64,000 nt of DNA. It comes from a virus (taxonomy: Duplodnaviria > Heunggongvirae > Uroviricota > Caudoviricetes). Where the stretch lies: the IMG/VR virus record IMGVR_UViG_2925939204_000001, one strand, 5' to 3'. Shown here in pieces: positions 5,231 to 63,170 of this stretch. The first letter of the stretch is position 1. Each line of letters opens with the position of its first letter. A program made the translations under genes and the position numbers. The notes under the pieces were generated by a model. It searched no databases. It had not been told where the DNA came from and saw only the letters and a program-made list of their open reading frames with translations.

Positions 5231-5569
5231 TCAGGCTGCTTTTTTATTCAGGTTCCGCTGAGAAATAAATTTTTCAGCAGTATTGATACGACTTAACTCT
5301 TCCTGGACGCGCATATCATTTTCGACTTCCCACAGATCTACTGCGGTCTGAAGATTAATCCAAAAATCTACAGAAGTATCGAATGCTTTTGCCAGGCGAT
5401 ATGCCATATCCATCGTTAGCTTACGATTGTTATTAACAAGAGCGCTTACGGTGTTACGATGAACATGAAGTATTTCTGCTAACTCGTTGATCTTCAGCTC
5501 TAACGGCTCCAGGTATTCGTACAGCAGGATATCACCTACGGTCGTCGGTTTTCTGGTTGCCTGTTTCAT
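5231..5569 (-). CDS. higA: HigA-family antitoxin (XRE HTH, COG3093-type)
   Basis: HTH region LAEILHVHRNTVSALVNNNRKLTMDMAYRLAKAFDTSVDFWINLQ; directly downstream of the HigB-like toxin. Confidence 0.75.
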   Translation of the reverse strand: MKQATRKPTTVGDILLYEYLEPLELKINELAEILHVHRNTVSALVNNNRKLTMDMAYRLAKAFDTSVDFWINLQTAVDLWEVENDMRVQEELSRINTAEKFISQRNLNKKAA

Positions 5570-5639
5570 TTTTTGCCCTTACTAGCGTGCGTATTAAGTG
5601 GACTCTGGTCAGAACCCGGTCCGTAACCGGGTATCTGTT

Positions 5640-5942
5640 TTAGTATTTGTGAGGGTCGAGATACAAGTCCTCGGCCTTTCCGTTAACCCACTTAAAAATT
5701 AACCTATATTGCTTATTCACCCTTACTGATGAATAGCCATTTAGCTTCCCTGACAGTTCCTCATACCGATTACCTGGTGGTGATCTTAAATCCTTACAGG
5801 TAGTTGCGGCATTGATAATGTCCAACTTCCGTGACAATGTCATATGAATATCAGGAGGTATCTTTCTATGTGGTGTTGAAAATTCAAAAAAATCATCAAG
5901 CCACGCATCCCTGAAATCCTTTATGTTAATTTTTTTGGTCAT
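5640..5942 (-). CDS. higB: HigB toxin (RelE/ParE fold, plasmid maintenance killer family)
   Basis: C-terminal pattern NRYEELSGKLNGYSSVRVNKQYRLIFKWVNGKAEDLYLDPHKY typical of HigB; toxin-upstream-of-antitoxin order. Confidence 0.8.
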   Translation of the reverse strand: MTKKINIKDFRDAWLDDFFEFSTPHRKIPPDIHMTLSRKLDIINAATTCKDLRSPPGNRYEELSGKLNGYSSVRVNKQYRLIFKWVNGKAEDLYLDPHKY

Positions 5943-6104
5943 TAGTCATTTGATCCTCCGTGATGATTACCGAATGCCATAACTATAGCGCACCGTTGCA
6001 CTGTGCGCAAGTGCATTTTATGAATTCCCCCTCCTTCATCCAAAATCACAATCTCCCGAAAATCTTCCTTTCGATACCTGACAGATCGACCTTTGAGGAT
6101 GCTT

Positions 6105-6896
6105 ATGGGCCGTTTTGACGAATGGTTTGCTGACGATGCAAACCTGGCAAGTAAGGAGTCAGAACATGACAGCACGCAGAGAGAAACGCCAGCGCCGATT
6201 GAAGCGAATGCAGGAGGCGCGCCGGAACATGGCAATACCGGTTCGGATTCATTCAGCATTCTGGAAGAGCAACCCGCCGCCAAAGCTGATAGCCATGATA
6301 ATTTTGCTGATAGCAACGGTGGCCTTACTCCGGATGCTGGCGAATCAGATATAGCCATACTTCCATCTTCCCTGGCTGGCAGAGAACCGACTCCACAGTT
6401 AAAAGCACGCTATAACGGGCATAAAGCCTTTAACGACCAAATCCGCGCAGACTGGATGCTGATTATTGAATCCAGCCCAGACGCGTTTCAGGCTCTCTTA
6501 TATCGACCAGATGTTGGCACATATGGGGTAGTCAGCGACGAAACAGGAGAAGAGTCATTCACTGAACTGGATAACAACCAACGCGAACTGACTTACCAGG
6601 AACCTGAAATCGTTTATGTGCTGGATAACCCTGACGGGCGTGACTCTTTCCATGCGATTGACGCAGACGGTGAGCAGGATGGCTTAACCGATGATGTTCT
6701 GATTCTGCGTATTGCAGCAAATAACGTCCCCGTCGGCTCAATTCTTGAATGGAATGAAGAGATGGTAAACGGCGTAGCGCGCCGCTGGTGGTACGTGCAC
6801 CGTATTTTTAGCTACGGCACACAGCATGTTGGTTCGCTTTACTACTGCATACCTGCCAGGAATTTTGATACGACTCAAAACGGAGTGATCGAATGA
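6105..6896 (+). CDS. phage protein with acidic low-complexity N-terminal half
   Basis: ORF track (6093); ATG at 6105 has better GAGG spacing. Confidence 0.5.
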   Translation: MGRFDEWFADDANLASKESEHDSTQRETPAPIEANAGGAPEHGNTGSDSFSILEEQPAAKADSHDNFADSNGGLTPDAGESDIAILPSSLAGREPTPQLKARYNGHKAFNDQIRADWMLIIESSPDAFQALLYRPDVGTYGVVSDETGEESFTELDNNQRELTYQEPEIVYVLDNPDGRDSFHAIDADGEQDGLTDDVLILRIAANNVPVGSILEWNEEMVNGVARRWWYVHRIFSYGTQHVGSLYYCIPARNFDTTQNGVIE

Positions 6897-19031: not shown

Positions 19032-19060
19032 TTGATCTTCCATGTTTTCAGGCTTATATT
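19032..19060 (+). promoter_or_regulatory. sigma70-type promoter of immunity module 1 (TTGATC, 17-bp spacer, TATATT)
   Basis: Hexamers and spacing read directly; identical promoter at 52682-52710. Confidence 0.55.
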
Positions 19061-19139
19061 CACGCCGTTGCAGCAAATTCTGCGACCGGGTTTAGCAGCC
19101 TGAATGTACATGCGGACAACCGCAGATATCCGATATTGC

Positions 19140-19258
19140 GGTATTTTTGTGTCCGTAAAACCATGTTACGCCCGAATTATGGTGGGGCGTGATGGGGAGG
19201 CTTCGGCCTGCTGGTTTCATGTACGCCAGTCTGCTAACCCCGTCACGTCCTGCCACCC
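19140..19258 (+). ncRNA. c4: c4-like antisense regulatory RNA of an immI-like operon (module 1)
   Basis: RNA elements b' (catgtac, 19218-19224) and a' (ctgctaac, 19231-19238) are complementary to a1/b1 (19090-19112) and to a2/b2 (19259-19296) overlapping the icd RBS, as in the P1 c4 system. Confidence 0.55.
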
Positions 19259-19307
19259 GTTTAGCAGCGGGTAGCAGGTTGTTAAACCTGTACATGAGGC
19301 CGTAACT

Positions 19308-19523
19308 ATGGTTAATGCCAATCCTTGCGCACGCCCGGAATTTATCTGGCGCTTTTATTCCTGCACAAAACACACCTACATCAGCGTAATGGCAGCTACT
19401 GAGGCTGAAGCGCGTTCATTTCTTCCTACAGATCCATGCATTTTTGCCGCTCGCTTTAAACTCGATGCTCTGGACGTTTTGACCTACTGGAACCGCCCAA
19501 TGAACTGCGTGGAGGTGCATTAA
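19308..19523 (+). CDS. icd: Icd-like small protein (host cell division inhibitor family)
   Basis: N-terminal RPEFIWRF motif; position between c4-like RNA and ant; RBS overlapped by the b2 antisense target. Confidence 0.6.
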   Translation: MVNANPCARPEFIWRFYSCTKHTYISVMAATEAEARSFLPTDPCIFAARFKLDALDVLTYWNRPMNCVEVH

Positions 19524-20521
19524 TGGACGCAGTAACTATCAATAACAAACCATTCCCGACTCTCGAATATAAAAATCAGCGTGTAGTGACCTTTGAGATG
19601 ATTGATGAGGTGCACGAACGTGTTGATGGGGCAGCCAGGGGAACATTTAAGCGAAACAGAAGTCGTTTCATTGAAGGGGTGGATACTTATGTTATTGATT
19701 ATTCTGAAAAGGGCTTTTTAAGCCCATTTGGAATTGATGTCCCCCCGCGCGGTTTGCGCGTGTTCACTGAGTCCGGCTATCTGATGATTGTTAAGTCATT
19801 CAATGACGATCTGGCCTGGCAAGTGCAACGTGAGCTGGTAAACAGCTATTTTCGTATTAAGCAATTAATACCGGAGCACTCACCGCTAAAATCAAAAGCC
19901 GAAATCCTGGCCGAAATGGCGCAAATGCATCTTGAGCATGAACGCCGGATCAACGCCGTAAATGCCCAGGTAGCCGAGGTATCAGCACAAGTATCGATGG
20001 TCGCTGAAACACTCGAGCAAATCAAGAAAGGCAATATTCCGGAAGGCTACATTGGCTACCGCCAGCTGGCGGCGAAATGTGGCCTGACTGAAGCAAAATG
20101 TCGCAACCTGGTCAACGCTTACCGGATTCCCACCGATACGCATGAGTTTTTAACTCCCGATGGTTTGCTTGCGCGACGCTCCATTGTGGCCCTGGCCCCC
20201 TTCCGGAAAGCCTTTAAGCAGGTGATGTCGGAGGCAGAACCACGCAATAAACGCTGGTATCATCCAAAGATGGGGATGTTTCAGGCAATCCACCATCCTG
20301 TGCCTGAAAGCCCAAAGGATAATCTGTCACTACATACCGTCAGAGAGAAGATCAGGACTGGATACGCAACAGTGTGTCGTCGTTCTTCCTGGCCTGAAGG
20401 TATATGGGTGTGGCCCGAAGGTGGATCACGAAAGCACTGGCGCACTATCCGGGACGGGAAAATCCATGCTATTGATTTAGCGCCAGAGGATATTGTTGCT
20501 ACGGACTGGATTGTTAGTTAA
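19523..20521 (+). CDS. ant: antirepressor Ant with C-terminal DUF2829 (Tad2-like) domain
   Basis: TAATG-coupled to icd; central region identical to the module 2 Ant (IKKGNIPEGYIGYRQLAAKCGLTEAKCRNLVNAYRIPTDTHEFLTP); last ~65 aa homologous to the free-standing ORF 53885..54085. Confidence 0.7.
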   Translation: MDAVTINNKPFPTLEYKNQRVVTFEMIDEVHERVDGAARGTFKRNRSRFIEGVDTYVIDYSEKGFLSPFGIDVPPRGLRVFTESGYLMIVKSFNDDLAWQVQRELVNSYFRIKQLIPEHSPLKSKAEILAEMAQMHLEHERRINAVNAQVAEVSAQVSMVAETLEQIKKGNIPEGYIGYRQLAAKCGLTEAKCRNLVNAYRIPTDTHEFLTPDGLLARRSIVALAPFRKAFKQVMSEAEPRNKRWYHPKMGMFQAIHHPVPESPKDNLSLHTVREKIRTGYATVCRRSSWPEGIWVWPEGGSRKHWRTIRDGKIHAIDLAPEDIVATDWIVS

Positions 20522-51580: not shown

Positions 51581-52543
51581 GTGAGTATTTTAAATTCAGT
51601 TTCAGTAACTTTCAACACTTCTGAGTATAAAAACAACACTGAATACCACAAAAAAATCAAAGGTCATCAGTTGAGTTTTTTTGCTCGTCATAGCGGTCTT
51701 CTTTCCCCTTCACATAGCGCCATTATTGCCGAGTTCGCCAACCTGGCAGGGGCTACCGATGAATACATGATCCGTCGCTCATATGCTGATATGTCCGAGA
51801 TTACAGGACGCAGTATTTCTACTGTGCGCCGGGCATTTGCTGAAGCGACGAAGTGCGGAATGCTTGTTAAGCAACATCAGGTAGCGAATAACAATGCCCA
51901 GGTGTGTAACGTATATCGGTTTACGACACAATTTCTCCACTTCATTCATGTAGCAATGGAGATAGGGGGTAAGCAGGGCATCAAATTTGCCAACGCCACA
52001 AAACTGGTTAAGCAGTTGATTTCAAAGGTTCGTTATTTTTTTGAAACTGGGAACCCCCTGTTCAAATTGAACAAGTCCCCCCATGTTCAAAATGAACAGC
52101 CAATAGAAAATAAGAGTCACTCTATAGCCAAAAGAAGAGAAAGATCATGCGCGGTTCAGCCAAAGGCTTCACCAGCAGATAGTTCTCAAGCGGATAATGG
52201 GGGACTGGATAAAAAACCAGTAATCAGGGAAGAACATACCAACCACTGCCTGGCGGCGGCAAAAGCGAGAGCTGCAAAGCGTCGTTCAGACGAGGGTCAC
52301 GCAAAACGGCAGGCTCTGTATCGTACCGCTGAAAAGCTGGCAAAAAAATTTGCATGGATACGTAGTGCAGCTACCGCAGTGAATAAGCCTAAACAATCCA
52401 GTGCCCTGGATTTCTCAATGGATTATTCTGGCTCCCAGGGGTGTGCAACCATTGGTGAAGCCTTTGACCTGATGAAACAGCGTGGCTATCGGTCTGAATT
52501 TGACCGTGAGGATTGGTCAATCCCGGCTGGCTTTAGGGGATGA
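51581..52543 (+). CDS. HTH-containing protein, candidate replication/regulatory protein (RepL-like by position upstream of immunity module 2)
   Basis: HTH-like ITGRSISTVRRAFAEATKCGMLV; start codon uncertain; inverted repeats GTATAAATC/GATTTATAC upstream. Confidence 0.35.
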   Translation: MSILNSVSVTFNTSEYKNNTEYHKKIKGHQLSFFARHSGLLSPSHSAIIAEFANLAGATDEYMIRRSYADMSEITGRSISTVRRAFAEATKCGMLVKQHQVANNNAQVCNVYRFTTQFLHFIHVAMEIGGKQGIKFANATKLVKQLISKVRYFFETGNPLFKLNKSPHVQNEQPIENKSHSIAKRRERSCAVQPKASPADSSQADNGGLDKKPVIREEHTNHCLAAAKARAAKRRSDEGHAKRQALYRTAEKLAKKFAWIRSAATAVNKPKQSSALDFSMDYSGSQGCATIGEAFDLMKQRGYRSEFDREDWSIPAGFRG

Positions 52544-52595
52544 CCTGTGCGTCTACAAAACATCCCAATGATCGGAAAATGCTCGCTCGATAATT

Positions 52596-52630
52596 TGTGT
52601 TAGAAAATTAATTTGCTGTTTCTAAATCGG
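52596..52630. promoter_or_regulatory. operator-like site TGTGTTAGAAAA-N-TTTCTAA upstream of the immunity module 2 promoter
   Basis: Read directly. Confidence 0.45.
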
Positions 52631-52681
52631 AATGTATGATCTGCATCATCGACTGAAGTCATCCATTGCTGAAATTTTTAG

Positions 52682-52710
52682 TTGATCTTCCATGTTTTCA
52701 GGCTTATATT
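52682..52710 (+). promoter_or_regulatory. sigma70-type promoter of immunity module 2 (TTGATC, 17-bp spacer, TATATT)
   Basis: Identical to the module 1 promoter. Confidence 0.55.
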
Positions 52711-52789
52711 CATGCCGTCGTAGCAAATTCTGCGACCAGGTTTGACAGCCTGAATGTTAGTGCGGACAACCGCAGATTTCCGATATTGC

Positions 52790-52907
52790 GGTATTTTTGT
52801 GTCCGTAAACCGCGTTACGCCCGAATTATGGTGGGGCGTGATGGGGAGGCTTCGGCCTGCTGGTTTCACTAACGCCAGTCTGTCAACCCTGTCACGTCCT
52901 GCCACCT
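52790..52907 (+). ncRNA. c4: c4-like antisense regulatory RNA, module 2, with altered specificity
   Basis: b' cactaac (52867-52873) and a' ctgtcaac (52880-52887) complementary to a1/b1 (52740-52762) and a2/b2 (52908-52945); compensatory changes relative to module 1. Confidence 0.55.
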
Positions 52908-52956
52908 GTTTGACAGCGGGTAGCAGGTTGTTAAACCTGTTAGTGAGGCCGTAACT

Positions 52957-53181
52957 ATGGTTAATGCCAATCCTTGCTCACGTCCAGAATTCATCTGGCG
53001 TTTCCACTCCCTGCAAAAACACTGCGATCACTTCGCAATTGCCGCAACCGAAAAAGAAGCCCGTTCTCTGATCCCTGATCAGTATGGTGTTCTTACTGGT
53101 CGTTTCTCTACTTCCCCACAACCAAACACTAATCCCTGGTATCGCAATATTACCAATCCCGGAATTGCGGAGGCACACTGA
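52957..53181 (+). CDS. icd: Icd-like small protein, module 2
   Basis: MVNANPCSRPEFIWRF N-terminus; paralogue of 19308..19523. Confidence 0.6.
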   Translation: MVNANPCSRPEFIWRFHSLQKHCDHFAIAATEKEARSLIPDQYGVLTGRFSTSPQPNTNPWYRNITNPGIAEAH

Positions 53182-53888
53182 TGGAAATCTGCATTCTTGA
53201 AAAGCCATCAATGACCAGCATTGAGATCGCTGAGCTGGTGGGAAGTCGCCCTGATAACGTTAAACGCACTATTGAACGCTTGAGTAAATCAGGTGTTATT
53301 CCACTTCCTCCAATGGAGGTTTCCGAAAATATCAATAACTTAGGATTTAAAGTTAAAAATTCACACTACGTCTTCGAAGGCGAGCAAGGCAAGCGTGACA
53401 GTATCATTGTCGTTGCGCAGCTTTCTCCCGAATTTACCGCCCGGCTGGTGGACCGCTGGCGCGAACTGGAAGAACAAGCACGCCAGCCGTTGACCGAAAT
53501 AGAGATGATCGCCGCAATGGCTGCAAATGCAGTTCAGCAGCAAAAGCGGCTTCATGTTGTTGAGTCAAAGGTTAGCCAGGTGGTAGAAACCGTTGAGCAA
53601 ATCAAGAAAGGCAATATGCCGGAAGGCTACATTGGCTACCGCCAGCTGGCGGCGAAATGTGGCCTGACTGAAGCCAAATGCCGTAACCTTGTCAACGCTT
53701 ACCGGATTCCCACCGATACGCATGAGTTTTTAACTCCAGAGGGGGTATTGTCGCGTCGTTCCATCGTGGCCTTATCTCCCTTCATGAATGCTTTTAACCG
53801 GATGATGTCGGAGGCTGAACACCGAGGAAAACGCTGGTATCACCCCAAAATGGGGCAATTCCAGGTGATCGGTTGGGGAGGTGAGTGA
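53181..53888 (+). CDS. ant: antirepressor Ant with Rha-like N-terminal domain and shared Ant core
   Basis: N-terminal SIEIAELVGSRPDNVKRTIERL (Rha-like HTH); central region identical to module 1 Ant. Confidence 0.7.
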   Translation: MEICILEKPSMTSIEIAELVGSRPDNVKRTIERLSKSGVIPLPPMEVSENINNLGFKVKNSHYVFEGEQGKRDSIIVVAQLSPEFTARLVDRWRELEEQARQPLTEIEMIAAMAANAVQQQKRLHVVESKVSQVVETVEQIKKGNMPEGYIGYRQLAAKCGLTEAKCRNLVNAYRIPTDTHEFLTPEGVLSRRSIVALSPFMNAFNRMMSEAEHRGKRWYHPKMGQFQVIGWGGE

Positions 53889-54085
53889 TGGACATCATGC
53901 AGGCGGTAAAAAAAATCAGGGAAGGACAGGCTGAAGTGTGCCGCCGTAAAGCATGGAGTATTGATGTATGGGCCTGGCCTGATAATTACTCTACTACCGG
54001 ATGGTTTTGTATTAATGGACTCAAGATCCGGGAAGTTTATTTATCGACGGCTGATATAGTCGGTAATGATTGGATCGTGACTTGA
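53885..54085 (+). CDS. DUF2829-like small protein (candidate Tad2-type anti-defence sponge), coupled to ant
   Basis: 66 aa with N-terminal AxxKIReGxxVCRRKAW and C-terminal ADIVGNDWIV pattern; homologous to the C-terminal 65 aa of the module 1 Ant. Confidence 0.45.
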   Translation: MMDIMQAVKKIREGQAEVCRRKAWSIDVWAWPDNYSTTGWFCINGLKIREVYLSTADIVGNDWIVT

Positions 54086-54088
54086 AGC

Positions 54089-54116
54089 GTGATGCCCCGG
54101 CCTGGCCGGGGCTTTT
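54089..54116 (+). terminator. rho-independent terminator GCCCCGGCC-tgg-CCGGGGC then TTTTTTC
   Basis: Read directly. Confidence 0.6.
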
Positions 54117-54117
54117 T

Positions 54118-54603
54118 TCATGCCTCATTAGTTGAGGTTGCTGCGTCTCCGACTGGTAACAGAGCGGTATTGCGTGGTTCGCCAGCAGGCCAGCGATAGC
54201 CAGACACTCTTGATGTTGGGAATGCGCGAATATTAACCGCATCCCCCTGGTTCCCACCCAGGACAAGCAGATCGCCATTGGCGCGGCGTCCGACAACGAA
54301 GCCTACGTGCCCACCGCCTACGCGGGTAAATACAACGATACATCCGTATGCCGGTGTATCTAATTTCTCGCCCCAATCCAGATAGGATTTTGCCGACTCA
54401 AATCTTGTTGAGCGGATGCCTACACGTTCCAGCATTGCACCGACAAATGCTGCGCACCACGGCGTTTCATCGTCTTTAATTCCGCCGCGCTTGATGTCGC
54501 GCCAGAACTGAACGATTTCAGGGTTGTGTTTAGCGCCTTTTATTTCAGTCAGGCCAATGTGCTTACGGGCTTCAATTAGCCAGCGAGGTTCAATGTTTGC
54601 CAT
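54118..54603 (-). CDS. putative cell-wall peptidase (NlpC/P60-CHAP-like phage protein)
   Basis: Candidate catalytic Cys in TPWCAAFVGAM; strong RBS; family assignment from memory. Confidence 0.45.
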   Translation of the reverse strand: MANIEPRWLIEARKHIGLTEIKGAKHNPEIVQFWRDIKRGGIKDDETPWCAAFVGAMLERVGIRSTRFESAKSYLDWGEKLDTPAYGCIVVFTRVGGGHVGFVVGRRANGDLLVLGGNQGDAVNIRAFPTSRVSGYRWPAGEPRNTALLPVGDAATSTNEA

Positions 54604-54678
54604 ATTTTTCTCCCGGTCATGGGTTAATAAGTAGGCAAACTATGGGGAGTATGTGATTTTGACGGTAGTATCGTCCCC

Positions 54679-57600
54679 GTGAAAATAACATTCTCCATAC
54701 CCTCTCAACCGTACCGCATAGCGGAATTTTTACGGTTTAGAGGGGGAAATCCTTTGGACAAACTACTTCATTCAATCAGTGAAGCCTCCAGCTTAGGCGA
54801 ACTGATTGAAATTGTTAGTCGGTTGCATAAATTACGAGCTGTTGCGACCTTTGGCGTCAGGAAAGCCGATGGCGTCAGTATTCAGAAAACACGCCGGGCA
54901 GCAAACAATGCCGCAGTAAATCTTCTTAATTCCCTTCCGCCCGGCTTCGATGGGGCGAAATTAACTGACGAACAACGTCAGATTCTTGCCGGGTATACCG
55001 GTGAAGGCGGCCTGACAGATGGTGAGGGCAGCCAATACGAATACTACACGCCACAGTTTATGGCTGAAGGTATATGGGATCTGTTTGCTGACTACGGTAT
55101 TGATGGCGGGCACGTACTGGAACCATCAGCGGGCACAGGTATTTTCCAGGAGACAAAACGACAGGGCATGATAATGACCAGCGCCGAACTGTCTCCGATT
55201 TCCGGTCGAATAAACCAGCTTTTGCACCCGGAAGACGATGTGAATATCGGGGCGTTTGAGGCGCTGGCGGCGAAAGACGCAATGTATGATCACGCTGTTG
55301 GTAACGTACCGTTTGGTGAAGGGCGTTCCGGTGTCGCCGGGCTTGATCCGGCATATGCAAACGAGAAGAACGTTGGCAATTACTTTGTGCTGCGCACGAT
55401 CGACAAGGTTAAGCCTGGTGGGCTTATCGTATTGGTGGTGCCGAATGGCATGACCGATGGTGCGAAATATAAAAAATTGCGCGATAAAGTCAGCCGTAAA
55501 GCGGAATTTTTGGGCGCGCATCGTATGCCTTCCGGTACGTTCAGTGAATCAGGTACAGATACCGTGGTGGACGTATGGGTATTGCGTAAACACCCGGAAG
55601 CCTTCCTGGAGATGATCCCCGATACGGATGATTCGACGCTCAAATCGGCAAACGTCCTTTGGGATACCTTCCTCAAAGGAAAATGGTTTACAACCGAAGG
55701 GAAGCGATTTGTTTACGGCGACATGGAACGTACCAGCTTCCGCAATACCCTGGTGGTGAAAAAAGACGGTCGTGTATCCAATGAGTCGATGAAAACCGCG
55801 CTATCTCGTCGCTTTGATAGTCGCATCAATTGGGATTTGCTCGGCGTAACTACTCAGGCATGGCAGGGCGCGAAAGTGGGCGATAAACGCCTTGTAGGCG
55901 GTATCTGGCATGAGTTTGATGGTCTGAAATGGGTTAAGGACACGACAACCAAATCCTCCGCGCTTGATGTAAGTCGATATGGTGTTTCGACGTTTGGCGA
56001 TCTGCAGATCGCGTTTCAGTCAACAAATGGCATTCTGGCTTTGTCATGGGACCAGATATCGGCGATCGCGTCTGACTACCCATCGGTTGTCAGTGATGAA
56101 GTGGCAGCAATGATTCGCTTTGCTGGCAAGCAGCGAGAAAAAGACAGGGAGCGCGTTATGCGCGGTGCACTGATAGGTCAGTTGATCAACAAGGCACTTG
56201 ATTTGCGTAACCTGGGGGTGAACGTTGATGACAAACTGGCAGATGCATCCCGCCTGGCGGCAGCAGAAGTTGCGAAGTATGGACCACCGCACGCGATTAA
56301 GCTGAATGGGCTTGCTGAAGCTGGCGCTAAAAACTGGATGACGTTCACTGGCAATGTGAAACAGGATGGTTCCACTTCTGACCTTCTGGCAGGGCGACTT
56401 GATGTAACGGATGGTGCTGCCGGTATTGACTTTACGCGTCCTGAACAAGTGATAGCACATCTTTTTAGTGATGTAGCCCTTAATCCTATAACGCTTGGCG
56501 ACTTTCGTGAGGCGTTTGCTGGTGAACTGCCAGAGGACGACGACGCGGCCCTTGAATACCTGGCGAAATTTGATGATATCGCTATTGATGGGTATGGCTG
56601 TCTGCTGCCGATGGACCGCGCCACCAGCGGCGATGTTGCAACCAAAACAGCACTGCTGGTGGGCTGGCGTGATGCGTCAACAGGTGAGCAGAAAGCGAAC
56701 TTTGAGCGTCAGTTGGCGAAAATCGAAGAGAAACGCATTTTCACGCCACTAAATAAAGTCACCGTTAATCTGAATGCCCGCTGGCTGGATCGCCGCTTGA
56801 TAAAAGAGTTCCTGGCAGAGCAGGGCTATGACGAGTTTAAGTACACTGAACCTGATCTGAAGGTCGTCGATGGCATTCTGGTATCTCCGGACGATTACGA
56901 AGGTAAGGACGGTGTATTTACCGGCTACCAGCTACGAACCGTAAACGGCAAAAACGGGAATGAGTTCAAGAAGGCCAACAATAAAGACGGCTTCCTGAAC
57001 CAGTTAGAAAACTACCTGAACGGTGTTAAACCGCGTGGGCAGAATGCTAACGAGTACCTGGATAAAATTGCTCAACTGGAAGTTAGCTTTAACGACTGGT
57101 TACGCACCCACCCGCAGGCGGATCAGATAGCCCGTGACTATAACGACGCATTCAATGGTTTCATTCCGTTCACACATTCTGACGCACCGCTAGGCCTGGA
57201 AGGGATTAGTGGAAAGCGCATTCCTCTGACTTATCAGAATGAAGAAGTTCGCCGCTTGTCAGAAGATGGGCGTGGCATCATGGGATTTGGTACCGGGCTG
57301 GGTAAAACCACGACCGCGCTTGCGCTTGAGGCGTATAACTTCGAAACAGGTCGCACTAAACGCACGTGTATTGTTGTTCCGAAGGCGGTTTATCAGAACT
57401 GGTATCACGAGGCACAGAGTTTCTACAGTGCTGATGCCTTCGCCAATATGATGTTTATCGGTTTGGATGAAGTTCGTGATGACGGCGGAAATATTCTTAC
57501 CGCGCCAGTGCTTGATGAAAATGGCGAACCACGCCTCGACAGTAACGGGCAGCCTCTTACCAGAAATGTTGTGAAAGAGTCCGCCAGCGCCGTTATCGTT

Positions 57601-60600
57601 CAGCGCATGAACATGATCCCGTCGTCAAATTGGCGAACGGTCATCATGACAAAAGAACAATTCGCGTCTATCCCGCTACGAGAAAAAACCATCGAGGAGA
57701 ACTCACAGCAAGCTGTCTTTAATGCTGTGGAAATGGGGCGTCTTGACCTGGCCTCCGGTAAACACCGTGATGCGCAGAAGAAGAACAAGATTAAGGATCA
57801 GGCCGCGAATACCGGTACAACGAAGAAGCAGAATATCCCGTACTTTGAGGATATGAACTTCGATAGCGTGATTGCCGACGAGGGGCATAACTACCGCAAC
57901 TCCTTTAATGCCGGGCGTGAAGCGGGACAACTGGCATATTTGCCTAACCCGGCAGTATCCAAGATGGCCCGCGACATGGCTGTAAAAGCTGCGTACATGA
58001 TGAAACGCAACAACGGGCGTGGTGTAGTCATGCTGACGGCAACTCCGCTGGTGAACAGTCCGATTGATGCCTTCAACATGCTGTCTACTGTCATTCCGCA
58101 GGAAGAGTGGATGCGCATGGGTATTGTTACGCCGGATGATTTCGTTCGCGTGTTCGGCAAAACAGCCACAGTTCAGGTTCAGAAAATTTCCGGTGAGGTG
58201 GAAGAGAAGCAGGGGCTGGTGGGCTTCCAGAACCTTGATGGTCTGCGTGGTATTTTCCACCGTTGGACCACTCTGAAGACTGCCGCAGATGTCGGAGCGA
58301 CGGTTAAAATTCCCGATATCATCGAGAACACCTTGCAGATCCCGATGACAGGGGAGCAGGAGGCTGCTTATGAAGAGCTTCGTAAGCGTGCTCAGGAGTT
58401 AAGTCGCAATGATGAGCTGACAGTCGATGAAAACGGGCATATCACTAACGACAAACCGGATGATTTCATCTTCTCCATCATCCGCGACATGGATAAGGTT
58501 GCTATAGATCCGGATCTGTATGCCAGTGCGATTACATTCCAGTTCCCCGTTGAGCTTGCAGACAAGGTAAAAGCTATTGCTGATGCCCTGCCAAAAGTCG
58601 CAGGCGGTAAAGTGGCAGATGATGCAGACGAGGCCGAAGAAGACGGCGCTGGTGGACTGGTCAGTACGCGTACCAGCAAGGTAGTGAAGACCACCTTTAG
58701 TGCACATCCGGCGCATGTTGAAATACGCGCCAGCATTGAACTGGAAGCTGAAATACTGAAGGCCATTGCTGCCGCCGGGATTGATCTGCAGCAGGTATCA
58801 CACCCCATCCCACCGAAGTATGCCGCGCTGATCGAAAACCTTCGTGAAGGTCTGAAGAACGGTAAACAAATTGTCTTCATTGATGAAAAAGCCCAGCACC
58901 AGAAGCTGCGCCGTATTATCGCCAGTGCACTGCAAATGCCGGAGCAGGAGATAGGCATTATCAATGCGACGACCGTTAGCCAAGCTGGCGGCATCAAGCT
59001 GAAGAAGGTGAATAAACCGACTGAACCTACTCCGAATAAAAACGGTGAATACAAAGAAGGGGCATGGGAAACCTACTACAGCAAACTTGCCCAATATGAG
59101 GATTATCTCTCAGCTAAAAATGATGCTGGCCTTGAGGGCATGGAAGGTATTGCCGCCGACTATAACGAAGGTCGCACGCGCATCATAATCTGTAACAAGA
59201 AGGCTGAAGTAGGTATTAACCTGCACATCGGGACAACCGATATCCACCACCTGACACTACCCTGGACACCAGCCAGTATCGACCAACGAAATGGTCGCGG
59301 TGCGCGCGTAGGGTCACCGCAAGAGAAGGTCAATGTTCACTACTATTGTGGCAAAGGCACATTCGATGACTTCCGTCTGGATACGCTTAAACGTAAGAAA
59401 GACTGGATCAAGATGGTGATGACCTCCGACATGTCAGAGATCGCCAATGGTGATGCGGATGATGCTGATGAACGCGCCATTATGCTGGCGGCAAACCCGG
59501 AAGAACGCCGCGCAATCATGGCTCGCCAGGCGCAAGAGCGTGAAGAACGTCTGAAACTGAAAGCACAGCGCGAGGCCAACAATGCTCTCGATATCTACCT
59601 GAAAGCGGCAAACGCCGCCGGAAAAGATATCGGCATGATGGAGACAGAACTGAAAAGCGCGATGGAACAGATAGAGTATTACCAGCGAAATCTTGACGAC
59701 CTGATAAAAGCGGGTACGAACAGGAATGGGCAAAAATACGCACTTGAGCAGTTGAGTAGCTACAGAAAACGTGCGCGGGTGCTGCGGTTTGCGATCACCA
59801 GGGCAAAAGACGCGGATACCATAATGAAACGCTCTCGTGGTGATGTGGAGCGCGCTATTAAGTCTGGTGTGCTGGATATCAGTATCGATGTTATTCAGAA
59901 CCCACAGGAGTATATGCGCACTGACAAGAATATCCTGTTGCATAAAGGTAGTTATTACCGTGCAGTCATTGATGATCGCGAAACAACAGCGATTGTCCGG
60001 GTGGAAAAAATTGACGGTGAAAAAGCACAATACCTCTGCCGTATCGCCTGGCTGGATAGAGCAAGTCGTTACGCTCGAGCACCGGGGTCAATCGTTACAT
60101 TGCCGTTTGACTCTGTGATTGAAGCGGTAACTTTTGAAGAGGGGGTAGCTGAATCGCGCGCAACGGCTGCGCGAGGTGTTCAGTGCCACCAGCTATCAAC
60201 AATACTTACTCGCGATCAGTTCTATGATGCTATTCGCAATGGGGTAATGAATGTTATTGCTGGTAAACCTGGTAATGCATGGGGCGGTGGGTCAGCTATT
60301 AAATACTGGGCATATCGCACAGATGATGGTCAGATCGCGCTGTCATCGGCCTATGATGGCGTGATAGGCCAAAAAATCGGGCGAGCATCGGATATAGCAC
60401 CTGAGCGATGGATATATCCTGATGGCAACGACGAGGCGCTGAAGCGTGAAGTAGCAAAAATACAAGCCAGTGATAACCCGCTGAATATCGTGGACGGCGA
60501 GGGATTCCTCCAGGCATTGTATGGGTATGATTACATCCAGGGAATGCAGGCATGGGGCGCACAGGCAACGATGGATGATGTTGCCCAGGAGTTCGAAAAC

Positions 60601-61590
60601 TGGATGGCTGGGCGTGGTCTGTCAGGTCGTTCGCTTAATAAAGTCACTTCTGAAGATATTCTTAGCTTGTTCCGCAAACCGTCCGGAGAAGGTCTGGAAT
60701 CATTCTGGAGGACCGTGCTGGCATACCGTTTATTCCAGGGCAGGATGAAAGCCTTTAGCAATATCGATGATATTGAACGGATGTTTAATCAGGTCAAGAT
60801 CGCGAAAATTAAGGCGAAGATCGAAAAAACACGTTCTGCGCTGGTGGCCTGGCGCGATGCATTGTTTGAGCAATATAAATCACTCAGTGATGCAGATGGA
60901 TGGGCGGCATTGGAACAGCTGGCGAATAATGGGGTAGATGGAGCTAAACTCGCCATTGTTCAGGCTGATAACCCCCTGGAATCACCGGCAGCACAGTGGA
61001 TTAAGGTGGGGGCTGTCATCAATGCATTTGATGAAAAACACATTAGTAAGGACGATTTTGCTGATGCTGTTTCTGTTAATCGCCTGGTAGAAATGGCTAC
61101 CCGCCGCGCCCGTGAGTTGAAAGACGGCGACTATGTGAATGAGTTGCCGGATACGCTCAAATCGGCAACGTGGCAGGACTATGTATCGCTGAAAAACGGC
61201 GGGGCCACTGAATCAGAGATCGCGGAAAGGCTTGAGCAGGCTGAAAGCAAAAGAGAAGAGCAGGCGGCAGTGGCTGAAGCCAGAGCTGATGAAGCGGCGA
61301 ATGATGACTATATCATTGTGGTTAATGATAAGCCGATTCGCGCTAAGGCGCGTGTTCGCGGGCGCTGGTGGAGCGTCAGCGAGGACGTTGGCGCGGTTTA
61401 TCTCATTGCCGACCAACCAGGTTCCTCGACAATACGGAACGCCAAAGACGCGATTAAGAAGATTGGCGGGCGTTTCTGGAATTTTGAAGCAAACCCGGTT
61501 GCTGATGTGAACTTTGACCGTCCTGCATGGATGGTATCTACGCGTTACTCGGTAGATGAACTGCGTAAAATAATCGCCGATGCGGCCTAA
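54679..61590 (+). CDS. darB: giant DarB-like methyltransferase-helicase (candidate packaged anti-restriction protein)
   Basis: N-terminal MTase motifs VLEPSAGTGIF and GNVPFG; helicase motifs GFGTGLGKTT, DEGHNYRN, LTATPLVNSP, QRNGRGAR; start may be the TTG at about 54754 after AGAGGGGGA. Confidence 0.7.
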   Translation: MKITFSIPSQPYRIAEFLRFRGGNPLDKLLHSISEASSLGELIEIVSRLHKLRAVATFGVRKADGVSIQKTRRAANNAAVNLLNSLPPGFDGAKLTDEQRQILAGYTGEGGLTDGEGSQYEYYTPQFMAEGIWDLFADYGIDGGHVLEPSAGTGIFQETKRQGMIMTSAELSPISGRINQLLHPEDDVNIGAFEALAAKDAMYDHAVGNVPFGEGRSGVAGLDPAYANEKNVGNYFVLRTIDKVKPGGLIVLVVPNGMTDGAKYKKLRDKVSRKAEFLGAHRMPSGTFSESGTDTVVDVWVLRKHPEAFLEMIPDTDDSTLKSANVLWDTFLKGKWFTTEGKRFVYGDMERTSFRNTLVVKKDGRVSNESMKTALSRRFDSRINWDLLGVTTQAWQGAKVGDKRLVGGIWHEFDGLKWVKDTTTKSSALDVSRYGVSTFGDLQIAFQSTNGILALSWDQISAIASDYPSVVSDEVAAMIRFAGKQREKDRERVMRGALIGQLINKALDLRNLGVNVDDKLADASRLAAAEVAKYGPPHAIKLNGLAEAGAKNWMTFTGNVKQDGSTSDLLAGRLDVTDGAAGIDFTRPEQVIAHLFSDVALNPITLGDFREAFAGELPEDDDAALEYLAKFDDIAIDGYGCLLPMDRATSGDVATKTALLVGWRDASTGEQKANFERQLAKIEEKRIFTPLNKVTVNLNARWLDRRLIKEFLAEQGYDEFKYTEPDLKVVDGILVSPDDYEGKDGVFTGYQLRTVNGKNGNEFKKANNKDGFLNQLENYLNGVKPRGQNANEYLDKIAQLEVSFNDWLRTHPQADQIARDYNDAFNGFIPFTHSDAPLGLEGISGKRIPLTYQNEEVRRLSEDGRGIMGFGTGLGKTTTALALEAYNFETGRTKRTCIVVPKAVYQNWYHEAQSFYSADAFANMMFIGLDEVRDDGGNILTAPVLDENGEPRLDSNGQPLTRNVVKESASAVIVQRMNMIPSSNWRTVIMTKEQFASIPLREKTIEENSQQAVFNAVEMGRLDLASGKHRDAQKKNKIKDQAANTGTTKKQNIPYFEDMNFDSVIADEGHNYRNSFNAGREAGQLAYLPNPAVSKMARDMAVKAAYMMKRNNGRGVVMLTATPLVNSPIDAFNMLSTVIPQEEWMRMGIVTPDDFVRVFGKTATVQVQKISGEVEEKQGLVGFQNLDGLRGIFHRWTTLKTAADVGATVKIPDIIENTLQIPMTGEQEAAYEELRKRAQELSRNDELTVDENGHITNDKPDDFIFSIIRDMDKVAIDPDLYASAITFQFPVELADKVKAIADALPKVAGGKVADDADEAEEDGAGGLVSTRTSKVVKTTFSAHPAHVEIRASIELEAEILKAIAAAGIDLQQVSHPIPPKYAALIENLREGLKNGKQIVFIDEKAQHQKLRRIIASALQMPEQEIGIINATTVSQAGGIKLKKVNKPTEPTPNKNGEYKEGAWETYYSKLAQYEDYLSAKNDAGLEGMEGIAADYNEGRTRIIICNKKAEVGINLHIGTTDIHHLTLPWTPASIDQRNGRGARVGSPQEKVNVHYYCGKGTFDDFRLDTLKRKKDWIKMVMTSDMSEIANGDADDADERAIMLAANPEERRAIMARQAQEREERLKLKAQREANNALDIYLKAANAAGKDIGMMETELKSAMEQIEYYQRNLDDLIKAGTNRNGQKYALEQLSSYRKRARVLRFAITRAKDADTIMKRSRGDVERAIKSGVLDISIDVIQNPQEYMRTDKNILLHKGSYYRAVIDDRETTAIVRVEKIDGEKAQYLCRIAWLDRASRYARAPGSIVTLPFDSVIEAVTFEEGVAESRATAARGVQCHQLSTILTRDQFYDAIRNGVMNVIAGKPGNAWGGGSAIKYWAYRTDDGQIALSSAYDGVIGQKIGRASDIAPERWIYPDGNDEALKREVAKIQASDNPLNIVDGEGFLQALYGYDYIQGMQAWGAQATMDDVAQEFENWMAGRGLSGRSLNKVTSEDILSLFRKPSGEGLESFWRTVLAYRLFQGRMKAFSNIDDIERMFNQVKIAKIKAKIEKTRSALVAWRDALFEQYKSLSDADGWAALEQLANNGVDGAKLAIVQADNPLESPAAQWIKVGAVINAFDEKHISKDDFADAVSVNRLVEMATRRARELKDGDYVNELPDTLKSATWQDYVSLKNGGATESEIAERLEQAESKREEQAAVAEARADEAANDDYIIVVNDKPIRAKARVRGRWWSVSEDVGAVYLIADQPGSSTIRNAKDAIKKIGGRFWNFEANPVADVNFDRPAWMVSTRYSVDELRKIIADAA

Positions 61591-62460: not shown

Positions 62461-62955
62461 TTGTTGTTATTATTTCGCATATTTACTATCAATGTGTGTG
62501 TTAGAAAAATAGCGCGAAAGAGAAGGCGTCGCAGTGAATATTCTGAAACATCCCCACATGCCGCAGCTCTTAGAGAACTGGAGAAAAACCCAGATCTAAT
62601 CAAAAGGAACCATGAGCATTACGAGCAGGTTCGCGTCCTGGACTGGATGTATCGCAATATGCGTTATGTGTATGAGCATACTCACGCCACTCCAAACGGT
62701 GGCCTGCGAGGCATAAGGACGGCAATAAAAATGGTGGCAGAGGGCCAAAAGAAGGGATATCCCGATCTTTCTATAGACCTTGCTTGTGGGGGATACCACG
62801 GAATGCGCATTGAGATGAAACATGGGAGAAATCGCCTGACTCCCGAACAACTCGTCTGGATGACTCGCCTCACAGAAGCCGGTTACTACTGCTTTGAGGC
62901 GCGCAGTGCCGCTGAAGCCATAAAAGCTATCACGGAGTATGTTTGTCTTGATTAA
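62461..62955 (+). CDS. VRR-NUC domain nuclease (PD-(D/E)xK); true start likely internal
   Basis: GYPDLSIDL...GMRIEMKHG motif pattern; operator-like TGTGTTAGAAAA at 62497-62508 upstream. Confidence 0.5.
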   Translation: MLLLFRIFTINVCVRKIARKRRRRSEYSETSPHAAALRELEKNPDLIKRNHEHYEQVRVLDWMYRNMRYVYEHTHATPNGGLRGIRTAIKMVAEGQKKGYPDLSIDLACGGYHGMRIEMKHGRNRLTPEQLVWMTRLTEAGYYCFEARSAAEAIKAITEYVCLD

Positions 62956-62969
62956 ACGGAGAAATCGTT

Positions 62970-63170
62970 TTGCGTTTACTTAACGTGGCAGAACTTATCC
63001 CTGCAGGAACTAATGCTATCGCTCGTCGTCGCTCATGGCAGCAGGCTCTATGTATTGAGATCTCGAAACGTATCAATGGAAGTTTTGAAGCTCGCAATAT
63101 TGTTACTGGCGATAAGGTTCACATAACCCCGGAAAGTGCAAGCGCTGATGATTGGGAGTTTGTACATTGA
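62970..63170 (+). CDS. hypothetical small protein
   Basis: ORF track. Confidence 0.4.
   Translation: MRLLNVAELIPAGTNAIARRRSWQQALCIEISKRINGSFEARNIVTGDKVHITPESASADDWEFVH

What the first reader, a model, noticed from the sequence alone, without database searches (positions are those of the whole stretch)
53885..54085. DUF2829 (Tad2-like) domain linked to both antirepressor operons
The 66-aa ORF (MMDIMQAVKKIREGQAEVCRRKAW...ADIVGNDWIVT) and the last ~65 aa of the module 1 Ant (...VREKIRTGYATVCRRSSW...EDIVATDWIVS, about 20320-20521) share the pattern recalled for DUF2829 proteins, the family that includes the Thoeris anti-defence sponge Tad2. An immune-signal sponge co-expressed with, or fused to, an antirepressor is an unusual arrangement.
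Basis: inference. Interest (0 to 1): 0.7.

Follow-up and report, generated by a model that had tools for sequence, protein, structure and literature searches.

The report
Minimal Tad2-like domain in immI operons
A P1/D6-type phage-plasmid carries two copies of a very small, highly divergent relative of the phage anti-immunity protein Tad2, one fused to and one translationally coupled to its antirepressor-like genes, both behind the C4 antisense-RNA switch; key ligand-contact residues of Tad2 are missing, so what it binds is unknown.

Summary
The ORF at 53885-54085 (likely start ATG 53888, 65 aa) and the last ~65 aa of the 332-aa Ant-like protein (20324-20518) are paralogues: 45% identity, E=8e-17.

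The Tad2/DUF2829 link is real but remote:
- Pfam PF11195 is the only or top hit, but below threshold (14.5 bits against 25). A distant family member reaches 23.9 bits.
- Profile-profile alignment is full length (probability 90%, P=1.7e-6; the best of 60 shuffles scores half as much).
- The model of the fused copy did not retrieve Tad2.

The "sponge" reading is not supported as stated. Two of four gcADPR contact residues that are invariant in canonical DUF2829 (N26, W73) are replaced. The insertion that forms the dimer interface and the cyclic-dinucleotide pocket is absent.

New findings:
- Every copy checked with Rfam lies in a C4 antisense-RNA operon.
- In two distant plasmids the gene directly follows C4, with no icd or ant.
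- Ant2 plus the ORF is a split form of the fused architecture (TGATG overlap).
- The fused copy is under strong purifying selection (dN/dS 0.10). The split copy is not (about 0.6).

The family is tiny and confined to enterobacterial phage-plasmids. I rate it a new variant of a known kind, function unresolved.

The parts
19054..19106 (+). a1/b1 target sites of C4 RNA, immI module 1
   Evidence: Rfam RF03163, 53.5 bits against a gathering score of 46.7. A promoter-like site lies at 19032-19060.
19175..19260 (+). C4 antisense RNA, module 1
   Evidence: Rfam RF01695, 71.7 bits against a gathering score of 45.
19308..19523 (+). icd-like gene, module 1 (71 aa)
   Evidence: ORF. Its N-terminus MVNANPCARPEFIWRF matches P1 Icd. 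The a2/b2-like repeats GTTTAGCAGC and TGTACATGAGG lie between C4 and its start codon.
19523..20521 (+). Ant-like protein 1 (332 aa): ORF6N N-domain, shared Ant core, Pro-rich linker, Tad2-like C-domain
   Evidence: Pfam ORF6N 46.4 bits. PHROGs phrog_1726 and phrog_63 'anti-repressor', with phrog_7385 at residues 273-331. The core is 67% identical to Ant2.
20324..20518 (+). Tad2-like domain, fused copy (residues 268-332 of Ant1)
   Evidence: BLASTP E=8e-17 to the 66-aa ORF. Family HMM 122.7 bits. The Ant-C subgroup aligns with DUF2829 in hhalign at P=4.9e-4 over the full length. dN/dS is 0.10 across 15 alleles. AF2 pLDDT is 81, with the same order of secondary-structure elements, but Foldseek found no Tad2 match.
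52704..52756 (+). a1/b1 target sites of C4 RNA, immI module 2
   Evidence: Rfam RF03163, 54.4 bits. A promoter-like site lies at 52682-52710.
52824..52909 (+). C4 antisense RNA, module 2
   Evidence: Rfam RF01695, 68.8 bits. The c4-icd region is 93% identical to that of P1.
52957..53181 (+). icd-like gene, module 2 (74 aa)
   Evidence: ORF. The D6 orthologue is annotated Icd-like.
53181..53888 (+). Ant-like protein 2 (235 aa): Rha/wHTH N-domain plus shared Ant core, ending exactly where Ant1 continues into the linker and Tad2-like domain
   Evidence: Pfam HTH_24 and Phage_pRha. phrog_63 E=1.4e-47. The alignment to Ant1 ends at ...HPKMGQFQVI.
53888..54085 (+). Tad2-like protein, free-standing copy (65 aa from ATG 53888; 66 aa if GTG 53885 is used)
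54094..54112 (+). Intrinsic terminator closing the module-2 operon
   Evidence: An 8-bp all-GC stem followed by a T run, 9 nt after the ORF stop.

Best explanation
The window holds two paralogous copies of a minimal (~65 aa), highly divergent Tad2-fold (DUF2829-related) domain. The domain is dedicated cargo of the C4-antisense-RNA-gated immI operons of D6-like P1-type phage-plasmids.

Shown:
- Both copies are the last coding element of a c4-icd-ant operon.
- One copy is the C-terminal domain of the Ant-like protein.
- The other is the same architecture split at the same junction and translationally coupled (TGATG), followed by a terminator.

Inferred from P1 immI biology: the protein is made only when C4 repression is absent, that is, just after entry into a naive cell or on derepression, together with Icd and Ant.

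Inferred, and the weakest step: it acts as an oligomeric binder of a small nucleotide-derived molecule other than gcADPR, in a remodelled pocket. The pocket keeps W24 and D57 (Tad2 W25 and D79) and adds the family-specific C-R-R and W-x-W-P residues. This would give an early anti-defence function timed by the C4 switch. It is not a canonical gcADPR or cyclic-dinucleotide sponge.
For: Homology and fold:
- PF11195 is the only or top Pfam hit, over the full length. P0010 scores 23.9 bits.
- hhalign gives 90% probability, P=1.7e-6, well clear of the reversed and shuffled controls. Each of three subgroups aligns full length on its own at P=1e-4 to 5e-4.
- Foldseek's top two hits are SPO1 Tad2 (probability 0.99 and 0.95).
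- The order of secondary-structure elements (alpha1, four strands, short helix, last strand) matches the published Tad2 topology.

Operon context:
- C4 plus a1b1 lie upstream in both window modules and in L004 and L005. A C4 RNA lies upstream in D6 module 1 and five IMG/VR loci checked with Rfam. 23 further split-type loci match the window's a1b1-C4 DNA by blastn.
- In L004 (the same protein is recorded from a Raoultella ornithinolytica plasmid) and L005, the gene directly follows C4. A b-site repeat sits at or just upstream of its ribosome-binding region (clear in L005, degenerate in L004), and no icd or ant is present. The protein therefore works without Ant.
- A terminator follows the ORF.

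A real, constrained domain: the fused copy has dN/dS 0.10 at dS 0.45.

Early, transient expression suits anti-defence sponges (discussion in 10.1101/2023.05.01.538930). Canonical DUF2829 domains are often C-terminal parts of larger phage proteins.
Against: - Pfam's gathering threshold is not reached by any family member.
- The window's Ant1 C-terminus has no PF11195 hit, and its better AF2 model (pLDDT 81) did not retrieve Tad2 with Foldseek.
- Tad2 ligand contacts N26 and W73, invariant in 15/15 canonical sequences, are S/P/H and V/I/Y/F here.
- The beta2-beta3 insertion is absent. It carries helix alpha2 (the V-dimer interface) and, in long Tad2s, the cyclic-dinucleotide pocket.
- Li et al. 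report that only about 1% of Tad2s lack an intact gcADPR site, so this family is an outlier.
- The free-standing copy evolves almost neutrally (dN/dS about 0.6; truncated variants P0002, P0003 and P0012 exist).
- The fusion, the split at a fixed junction and the presence of one copy per Ant fit an Ant-linked role equally well.
- No binding or phenotype data exist.
Confidence: 0.4

Rival explanations
1. The domain is part of the antirepressor machinery itself. It would be the oligomerisation module, or the module that binds the C1-type repressor, of the D6-type Ant. It can work as a domain, as a separate subunit (compare the two-subunit P1 Ant1/Ant2 complex), or alone as a small antirepressor in plasmids where it is the only C4-controlled gene.
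For: - Fusion and split occur at exactly the same junction, with TGATG translational coupling.
- There is one copy per Ant-like gene in both modules.
- It is always inside a C4 operon.
- In L004 and L005 it is the only protein-coding gene placed under C4 control. An immI module without an effector acting on immunity would be hard to explain.
- The fused copy is as constrained as the Ant core (dN/dS 0.10 against 0.08-0.13).
- These Ant-like proteins are unrelated to P1 Ant, so their active part is unknown.
- The Tad2 fold is an obligate homo-oligomer.
Against: - No Tad2-fold antirepressor is known.
- The operon also carries Icd, which is not an antirepressor, so C4 control does not imply antirepressor function.
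- The two copies are only 45% identical while the adjacent Ant cores are 67% identical.
- The split copy is weakly constrained, which is odd for an essential subunit.
- The V-dimer helix alpha2 of Tad2 is missing, so Tad2-style tetramerisation is uncertain.
Confidence: 0.3
2. The domain is a ligand sensor that regulates Ant. Binding of a nucleotide immune signal or other metabolite to the Tad2-like domain would switch antirepressor activity. Host immune activation or stress would thereby be coupled to prophage induction.
For: - A ligand-binding fold is covalently fused to a regulatory protein through a Pro-rich linker (HHPVPESPKDN).
- The family-specific invariant Arg and Trp residues (C19 R20 R21 W24 W29 P32) are compatible with a remodelled nucleotide pocket.
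Against: - This is purely inferential.
- Stand-alone versions exist without Ant (L004, L005).
- The operon is translationally silenced by C4 in lysogens, so the sensor would be absent when it is needed.
Confidence: 0.1
3. The resemblance to Tad2 is not homology. The domain would be an unrelated small alpha+beta module that happens to share the terminal G-x(n)-R-x-x-W and D-W-I-V motifs.
For: - All Pfam scores are below the gathering threshold.
- A profile search of PDB sequences gives Tad2 only E=0.91.
- My own 15-sequence DUF2829 HMM gives under 10 bits.
Against: - hhalign gives a full-length, collinear alignment at P=1.7e-6, with clean reversed and shuffled controls.
- Three subgroups align independently.
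- Two different structure-search programs both put DUF2829 structures first out of 48,000-350,000 chains.
- P0010 falls 1.1 bits short of the Pfam cut-off.
Confidence: 0.1
4. The free-standing ORF (53888-54085) is a decaying by-product of a gene split. Only the fused copy would be functional.
For: - dN/dS is about 0.6 for the ORF, against 0.05 for icd and 0.08 for the Ant core in the same loci.
- Truncated or frameshifted variants are present in databases (P0002, P0003, P0012; L045, L065).
Against: - The ORF is intact in 22 of 22 full-length IMG/VR loci and in about 108 plasmids at 80% identity or more.
- Core motif residues are kept in nearly all alleles.
- The Shine-Dalgarno sequence, the coupled start and the terminator are conserved.
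- dS is low (0.075), so the ratio is noisy.
- The variable sites cluster in loops, which also fits diversifying selection.
Confidence: 0.15

Closest known systems
Tad2 (Thoeris anti-defence 2; SPO1 gp34.65; Pfam PF11195 / DUF2829), including ModTad2, HgmTad2 and AcrIIA7
   Same: - The order of secondary-structure elements is the same: N-terminal helix, antiparallel sheet, and a short helix before the last strand.
- The alignment is collinear over the full length.
- Shared motifs are G17, R22, W25, D79 and the C-terminal D/E-D-W-x-(I/V) (SPO1 numbering).
- Both are small phage-encoded proteins, often found as the C-terminal domain of larger proteins.
- Tad2-family structures are the top structural neighbours of the ORF model.
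   Different: - It scores below the Pfam gathering threshold.
- It has about 65 aa against 72-100 aa, and the whole beta2-beta3 insertion is missing.
- The invariant G-W-N-G-K motif is reduced to W only.
- W73 is replaced by an aliphatic or aromatic residue.
- It has its own invariant C-R-R and W-x-W-P motifs.
- It is confined to enterobacterial P1/D6-type phage-plasmids.
- It sits in a C4-controlled immunity operon and is fused to an Ant-like protein.
- No ligand is known.
P1/P7 immI operon (c4 - icd - ant1/ant2)
   Same: - The C4 RNA, the a1/b1 and a2/b2 sites, and icd are clearly homologous (93% DNA identity for module 2; Rfam hits).
- An Ant-like gene follows icd with an overlapping stop and start.
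   Different: - The Ant-like proteins are unrelated to P1 Ant1/Ant2 (no KilAC domain; BLASTP E=0.38).
- They carry, or are followed by, the Tad2-like domain, which P1 lacks.
- There are two such operons per genome, as in phage D6.
Phage D6 orf17 (YP_009914694, hypothetical) and orf82 / orf18 (Ant)
   Same: These are direct orthologues. orf17 is 92% identical to the ORF. orf82 has the same fused C-terminal domain. orf18 is the counterpart of Ant2.
   Different: - The window's Ant1 has an ORF6N N-domain, where D6 orf82 has a Rha N-domain.
- D6 module 1 has an isrK-like RNA upstream of C4 instead of a c4-a1b1 hit.
- In the two deposited D6 records (MF356679.1, NC_050154.1) orf17 is annotated only as a hypothetical protein, with no Tad2 link.

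Membership tests
Pfam PF11195 Tad2-like (DUF2829) | HMM score at or above the gathering cut-off (25 bits) | tested here: not met
   The ORF scores 14.5 bits, P0001 16.5, P0007 11.9 and P0011 14.0. The window's Ant1 C-terminus gives no hit. P0010 scores 23.9 bits, E=6.2e-5.
Pfam PF11195 Tad2-like (DUF2829) | Full-length profile-profile homology to canonical members | tested here: met
   hhalign of the family against 15 canonical DUF2829 sequences gives probability 90%, P=1.7e-6, over 64 columns. The three subgroups give P=4.9e-4, 1e-4 and 5.4e-4. The reversed control scores 8.7 and the best of 60 shuffles scores 17.9, against 36.3 observed.
Pfam PF11195 Tad2-like (DUF2829) | Tad2 fold (alpha1, antiparallel five-stranded sheet, short helix before the last strand) | tested here: inconclusive
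Pfam PF11195 Tad2-like (DUF2829) | Conserved G-W-N-G-K motif (W25 and N26 contact the ligand) | tested here: not met
   W25 is kept (W24, invariant). N26 becomes S, P or H. G27 and K28 are absent. Canonical sequences keep GWNG in 15/15 and K28 in 13/15.
Pfam PF11195 Tad2-like (DUF2829) | W73 ... S76 ... D79 ligand-contact motif and the C-terminal (D/E)DW motif | tested here: inconclusive
   D79 becomes D57 (invariant), and D84-W85 become D62-W63 (invariant). W73 becomes V, I, Y or F; S76 becomes S, A or T; T78 becomes A, E or N.
Pfam PF11195 Tad2-like (DUF2829) | Homotetramer with inter-protomer pockets; binds gcADPR, His-ADPR or cyclic dinucleotides; inhibits Thoeris or CBASS | not testable with these tools
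   No multimer prediction or biochemistry is available. Helix alpha2, which forms the V-dimer interface, and the cyclic-dinucleotide insertion are missing.
P1-type immI operon | C4 antisense RNA with a1/b1 sites upstream and a2/b2 sites over the first gene's ribosome-binding site | tested here: met
   RF01695 and RF03163 match above their gathering scores in both modules. The repeated a and b sequences lie between C4 and icd.
P1-type immI operon | Antirepressor homologous to P1 Ant1/Ant2 (KilAC, PF03374) | tested here: not met
   P1 Ant1 hits PF03374 at 106 bits. The window's Ant1 and Ant2 do not. BLASTP of Ant2 against P1 Ant1 gives E=0.38. 'Ant' is therefore a positional or PHROG-level label (phrog_63 and phrog_1726).

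The most novel reading that the evidence does not exclude
The Tad2-fold protein is itself the effector of the C4-gated immunity switch. It would be either a new kind of small antirepressor, or a ligand-sensing module that makes antirepressor activity (and hence the lysis-lysogeny decision of P1/D6-type phage-plasmids) respond to a nucleotide signal. In that case the Tad2 fold has been recruited from immune-signal sequestration into phage regulatory circuitry, or the reverse.
Probability: 0.2. Interest if true: 0.85.

Novelty: new variant of a known kind. Interest (0 to 1): 0.55.

Why it matters
Tad2 proteins are the most widespread known sponges of TIR-derived immune signals, and their gcADPR pocket is reported to be almost universally conserved. 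This family is a stripped-down relative that has lost half of that pocket and the whole insertion domain. It is nevertheless under strong purifying selection when fused to an antirepressor-like protein. It is also wired into one of the best-studied phage regulatory switches, P1 immI with its C4 antisense RNA.

- If it binds a different signal, it extends the ligand range and the minimal size of the fold. It would also show that immI operons deliver anti-defence functions at the moment of infection.
- If it works with or as the antirepressor, it identifies the unknown active part of D6-type Ant proteins. These occur in over a hundred E. coli, Salmonella and Shigella phage-plasmids.

Either outcome can be tested directly with D6, a cultivable phage.

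Tried and rejected
Searches that added little:
- phmmer and profile searches of PDB sequences gave no significant Tad2 hit (E=0.91 at best).
- All three word-indexed protein searches and the exhaustive 1.84-billion-representative HMM search stayed inside a tiny family (6 representatives) and never reached bona fide PF11195 proteins. I therefore built a reference DUF2829 alignment from tblastn hits in phage genomes.
- My own HMM from that alignment gave under 10 bits for the family. This is weak, and I replaced it with hhalign.
- The scan of GTDB species representatives found no relative.
- NCBIfam gave nothing.

Ideas I rejected:
- The 81-83-aa 'transcriptional regulator' proteins (P0007, P0008) are not independent stand-alone genes. 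In L022 the ORF starts inside the Ant sequence, and the locus holds a recombinase gene and several large unannotated ORFs that I did not identify, so I read it as a truncated Ant remnant.
- L004 is probably not a deletion derivative of icd-ant. The shared peptide SVMAAT lies over the a2-site region in L004 and is probably coincidental. I did not pursue it.

Failed replication:

Limit on the selection analysis:
- The dN/dS values are pairwise Nei-Gojobori estimates on few, closely related alleles. No tree-based site test was run.

Full report
**1. Observation**

The 66-codon ORF at 53885-54085 (+) and the 332-codon ORF at 19523-20521 (+) exist with the quoted sequences.
- BLASTP of the small ORF against the large one aligns residues 9-66 with residues 275-332. 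There are no gaps, identity is 45%, and E=8e-17.
- The likely start is ATG 53888 rather than GTG 53885. A GGAGG at 53877-53881 lies 6 nt upstream of it. The D6 orthologue orf17 and the database representative P0001 both start with MDIMQ.
- The Ant2 stop and this ATG overlap as TGATG.
- The window is a D6-like, P1-type phage-plasmid. The stretch 52500-54700 is 98% identical to phage D6 and has the same gene order: repL, icd, ant, orf17, a convergent CHAP-domain gene, then darB.

**2. Surroundings**

Rfam finds two C4 antisense RNAs (19175-19260 and 52824-52909). Each is preceded by a c4-a1b1 element (19054-19106 and 52704-52756).
- Each C4 is followed after 47 nt by an icd-like ORF, then by an Ant-like ORF that overlaps the icd stop.
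- The a and b sequences are repeated between C4 and icd, as in P1.
- Module 2 ends with a strong terminator (54094-54112) 9 nt after the small ORF.

The Ant-like proteins:
- They share a core that is 67% identical (Ant2 residues 105-230 against Ant1 residues 124-256). The similarity stops at ...HPKMG(Q/M)FQ(V/A)I.
- After that point Ant1 continues with a Pro-rich linker and the domain. Ant2 ends five codons later and the small ORF begins.
- Module 2 is therefore a split version of the module-1 architecture.
- The N-domains differ: ORF6N in Ant1, and Rha/wHTH in Ant2 and in D6 orf82.
- Neither protein resembles P1 Ant1, which is a KilAC (PF03374) protein. 'Antirepressor' is therefore a positional and PHROG-level inference.

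**3. Is it Tad2-like?**

Pfam:
- PF11195 is the only hit of the small ORF and covers it end to end, but at 14.5 bits (E=0.053) against a 25-bit cut-off.
- Five of eight family members have PF11195 as their top sub-threshold hit.
- The window's Ant1 C-terminus has none.

Family size:
- An exhaustive HMM search of 1.84 billion representatives found only six family representatives.
- Two are more distant stand-alone proteins, P0010 (96 aa) and P0011 (68 aa). P0010 scores 23.9 bits, E=6e-5, on PF11195.

Profile-profile comparison:
- I built an independent alignment of 15 canonical DUF2829 domains. It includes SPO1 Tad2 (gp34.65) and sequences from phages of Bacillus, E. coli, Mycobacterium, Vibrio, Listeria, Rhizobium, an archaeal virus and others.
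- hhalign of the family against it gives probability 90%, P=1.7e-6, over 64 collinear columns.
- Each of the three subgroups aligns full length on its own (P=1e-4 to 5e-4).
- The reversed control scores 8.7 and the best of 60 column shuffles scores 17.9, against 36.3 observed.

Structure:
- The AF2 model of the small ORF (pLDDT 70.5) has the published Tad2 element order.
- Foldseek against the PDB ranks SPO1 Tad2 first and second (probability 0.99 and 0.95, E=0.037, TM 0.53). The next hits have probability below 0.25.
- The model of the fused copy (pLDDT 81) shows the same element order but retrieved no Tad2 with Foldseek. I report this as a failed replication.

Overall, remote homology to DUF2829 is likely (about 85%). 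Curated family membership is not met.

**4. Is it a sponge?**

Published contacts of SPO1 Tad2 with gcADPR are W25, N26, W73 and D79, plus T78, I63 and T65 (10.1101/2023.05.01.538930).
- In my canonical alignment, W25, N26, W73 and D79 are invariant in 15/15 sequences.
- In this family, W25 and D79 are kept (W24 and D57, both invariant). N26 is S, P or H, and W73 is V, I, Y or F. The G-K that follows W-N is absent.
- The whole beta2-beta3 insertion (about 20 aa in SPO1) is missing. It contains helix alpha2, which forms the V-dimer interface. In long Tad2s it also forms the cyclic-dinucleotide pocket (10.1101/2023.11.15.567273).
- That paper states that only about 1% of Tad2s are predicted to lack gcADPR binding.
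- The family has its own invariant residues (C19, R20, R21, W29, P32). These could form a remodelled pocket, but that is inference.

A canonical gcADPR or cyclic-dinucleotide sponge is therefore not supported. A binder of something else is possible.

**5. Comparative evidence**

Distribution:
- tblastn finds the family in 121 plasmids of 23-105 kb (most about 77-105 kb) from E. coli, Salmonella and Shigella, usually with both copies.
- It is also in 43 IMG/VR loci and in phage D6 only among 50,697 phage records.
- None is present in GTDB species representatives.

Link to C4:
- Every locus checked has a C4 RNA upstream.
- L004 is a contig whose P0010 protein is also recorded from a Raoultella ornithinolytica plasmid. 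L005 is a 90-kb contig. In both, the gene directly follows C4, by 44 and 52 nt.
- In L005 the a and b repeats lie between C4 and the start codon. In L004 they are degenerate and no shared 6-mer was found.
- There is no icd and no Ant-like gene in these two loci.
- The module occupies the same slot as window module 1, between the Rz/Rz1 spanin genes and a conserved 130-aa gene, but inverted.
- The domain is therefore a C4-controlled gene in its own right.

Selection:
- The fused domain has dN/dS 0.10 at dS 0.45 across 15 alleles.
- The split copy has dN/dS of about 0.6 at dS 0.075. In the same loci icd has 0.05 and the Ant core 0.08.
- The variable sites lie mostly in predicted loops.
- Truncated variants exist (P0002, P0003, P0012).

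**6. Mechanism**

Shown: the operon structure, the fusion and split, the translational coupling, the C4 linkage, and the constraint on the fused copy.

Inferred from P1 biology: expression occurs only when C4 is absent, that is, at infection or derepression.

My best guess (0.4) is an early-expressed oligomeric binder of a non-gcADPR ligand with an anti-defence role.

The main rival (0.3) is that it belongs to the antirepressor machinery, or is the antirepressor where it stands alone. This rival fits the fusion and the C4-only plasmids at least as well. A sensor role, non-homology, and decay of the split copy are lesser rivals.

**7. Novelty**

- The two D6 records annotate orf17 only as a hypothetical protein, and PHROGs lists the family (phrog_7385) as of unknown function.
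- The literature searches found no paper linking Tad2 to immI or to D6-type Ant.
- C-terminal DUF2829 fusions as such are common. One example is gp12 of the P1-like phage Ro157c2YLVW.

I rate this a new variant of a known kind, with moderate interest.

Noticed in passing
window 62970-63170 (+): A third 66-aa ORF (phrog_7206, E=2.8e-48) lies just after a VRR-NUC gene (62461-62955). It shows a weak full-length resemblance to the Tad2-like family: ...IARRRSW...TPESASADDWEFVH, family HMM 13.4 bits, hhalign probability 27%, P=6.6e-4. It has no Pfam hit. It may be a third, even more divergent relative.
   Followed up: partly
window 53888-54085 versus L024-L044: The free-standing copy has pairwise dN/dS of about 0.6, against 0.05 for icd and 0.08 for the Ant core in the same loci. 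Variable sites cluster at residues 25-27, 30, 35, 46-47, 52 and 58. This indicates relaxed or diversifying selection, and I did not resolve which.
   Followed up: partly
window 19523-20521 and 53181-53888; L023 1189-2232: The 'Ant' proteins of this element have no detectable similarity to P1 Ant1/Ant2 (KilAC). Their shared core (phrog_6610) has no known function. The N-terminal domain is swapped between relatives: ORF6N in the window's Ant1 and Rha in D6 orf82.
   Followed up: partly
L004 3752-4291; L005 3746-4207; L067: In two ~90-kb plasmid-like contigs, the C4 RNA and its targets control only the Tad2-like gene. The L004 protein is also recorded from a Raoultella ornithinolytica plasmid. 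L005 has a small NikA-like RHH gene downstream. Neither locus has icd or ant, and the module is inverted relative to its flanking genes.
   Followed up: partly
L002 2214-2292 and L046, L049, L058, L059: In D6 module 1 and related loci, the C4 RNA is preceded by a match to the isrK Hfq-binding sRNA family (RF01394). In the window, a c4-a1b1 match occupies that position instead.
   Followed up: no
L059-L063 (about 5256-6198): In five IMG/VR loci the Ant1-type gene is split by a frameshift into 212-aa and 120-aa ORFs. This could be a pseudogene, a sequencing error or recoding. I did not examine it.
   Followed up: no
L008 2078-2755 (phage vB_EcoM-Ro157c2YLVW gp12): A P1-like phage (Punavirus) carries a canonical DUF2829 domain (80 bits) as the C-terminus of a 225-aa protein next to ssb. 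Canonical and minimal Tad2-like forms therefore both occur in P1-type elements, at different loci. The window has no canonical copy (six-frame HMM scan).
   Followed up: partly
window 54118-54603 (-) and 54679-61590 (+): A convergent CHAP-domain peptidoglycan hydrolase gene and a 2303-aa DarB-like methyltransferase/helicase gene flank module 2, as in D6.
   Followed up: no
L022 2947-3198 (plasmid NZ_CP080067): The 81-83-aa proteins annotated 'transcriptional regulator' are truncated C-terminal remnants of the Ant1-type gene. The locus holds a recombinase gene and several large unannotated ORFs that I did not identify. No C4 RNA is present.
   Followed up: yes
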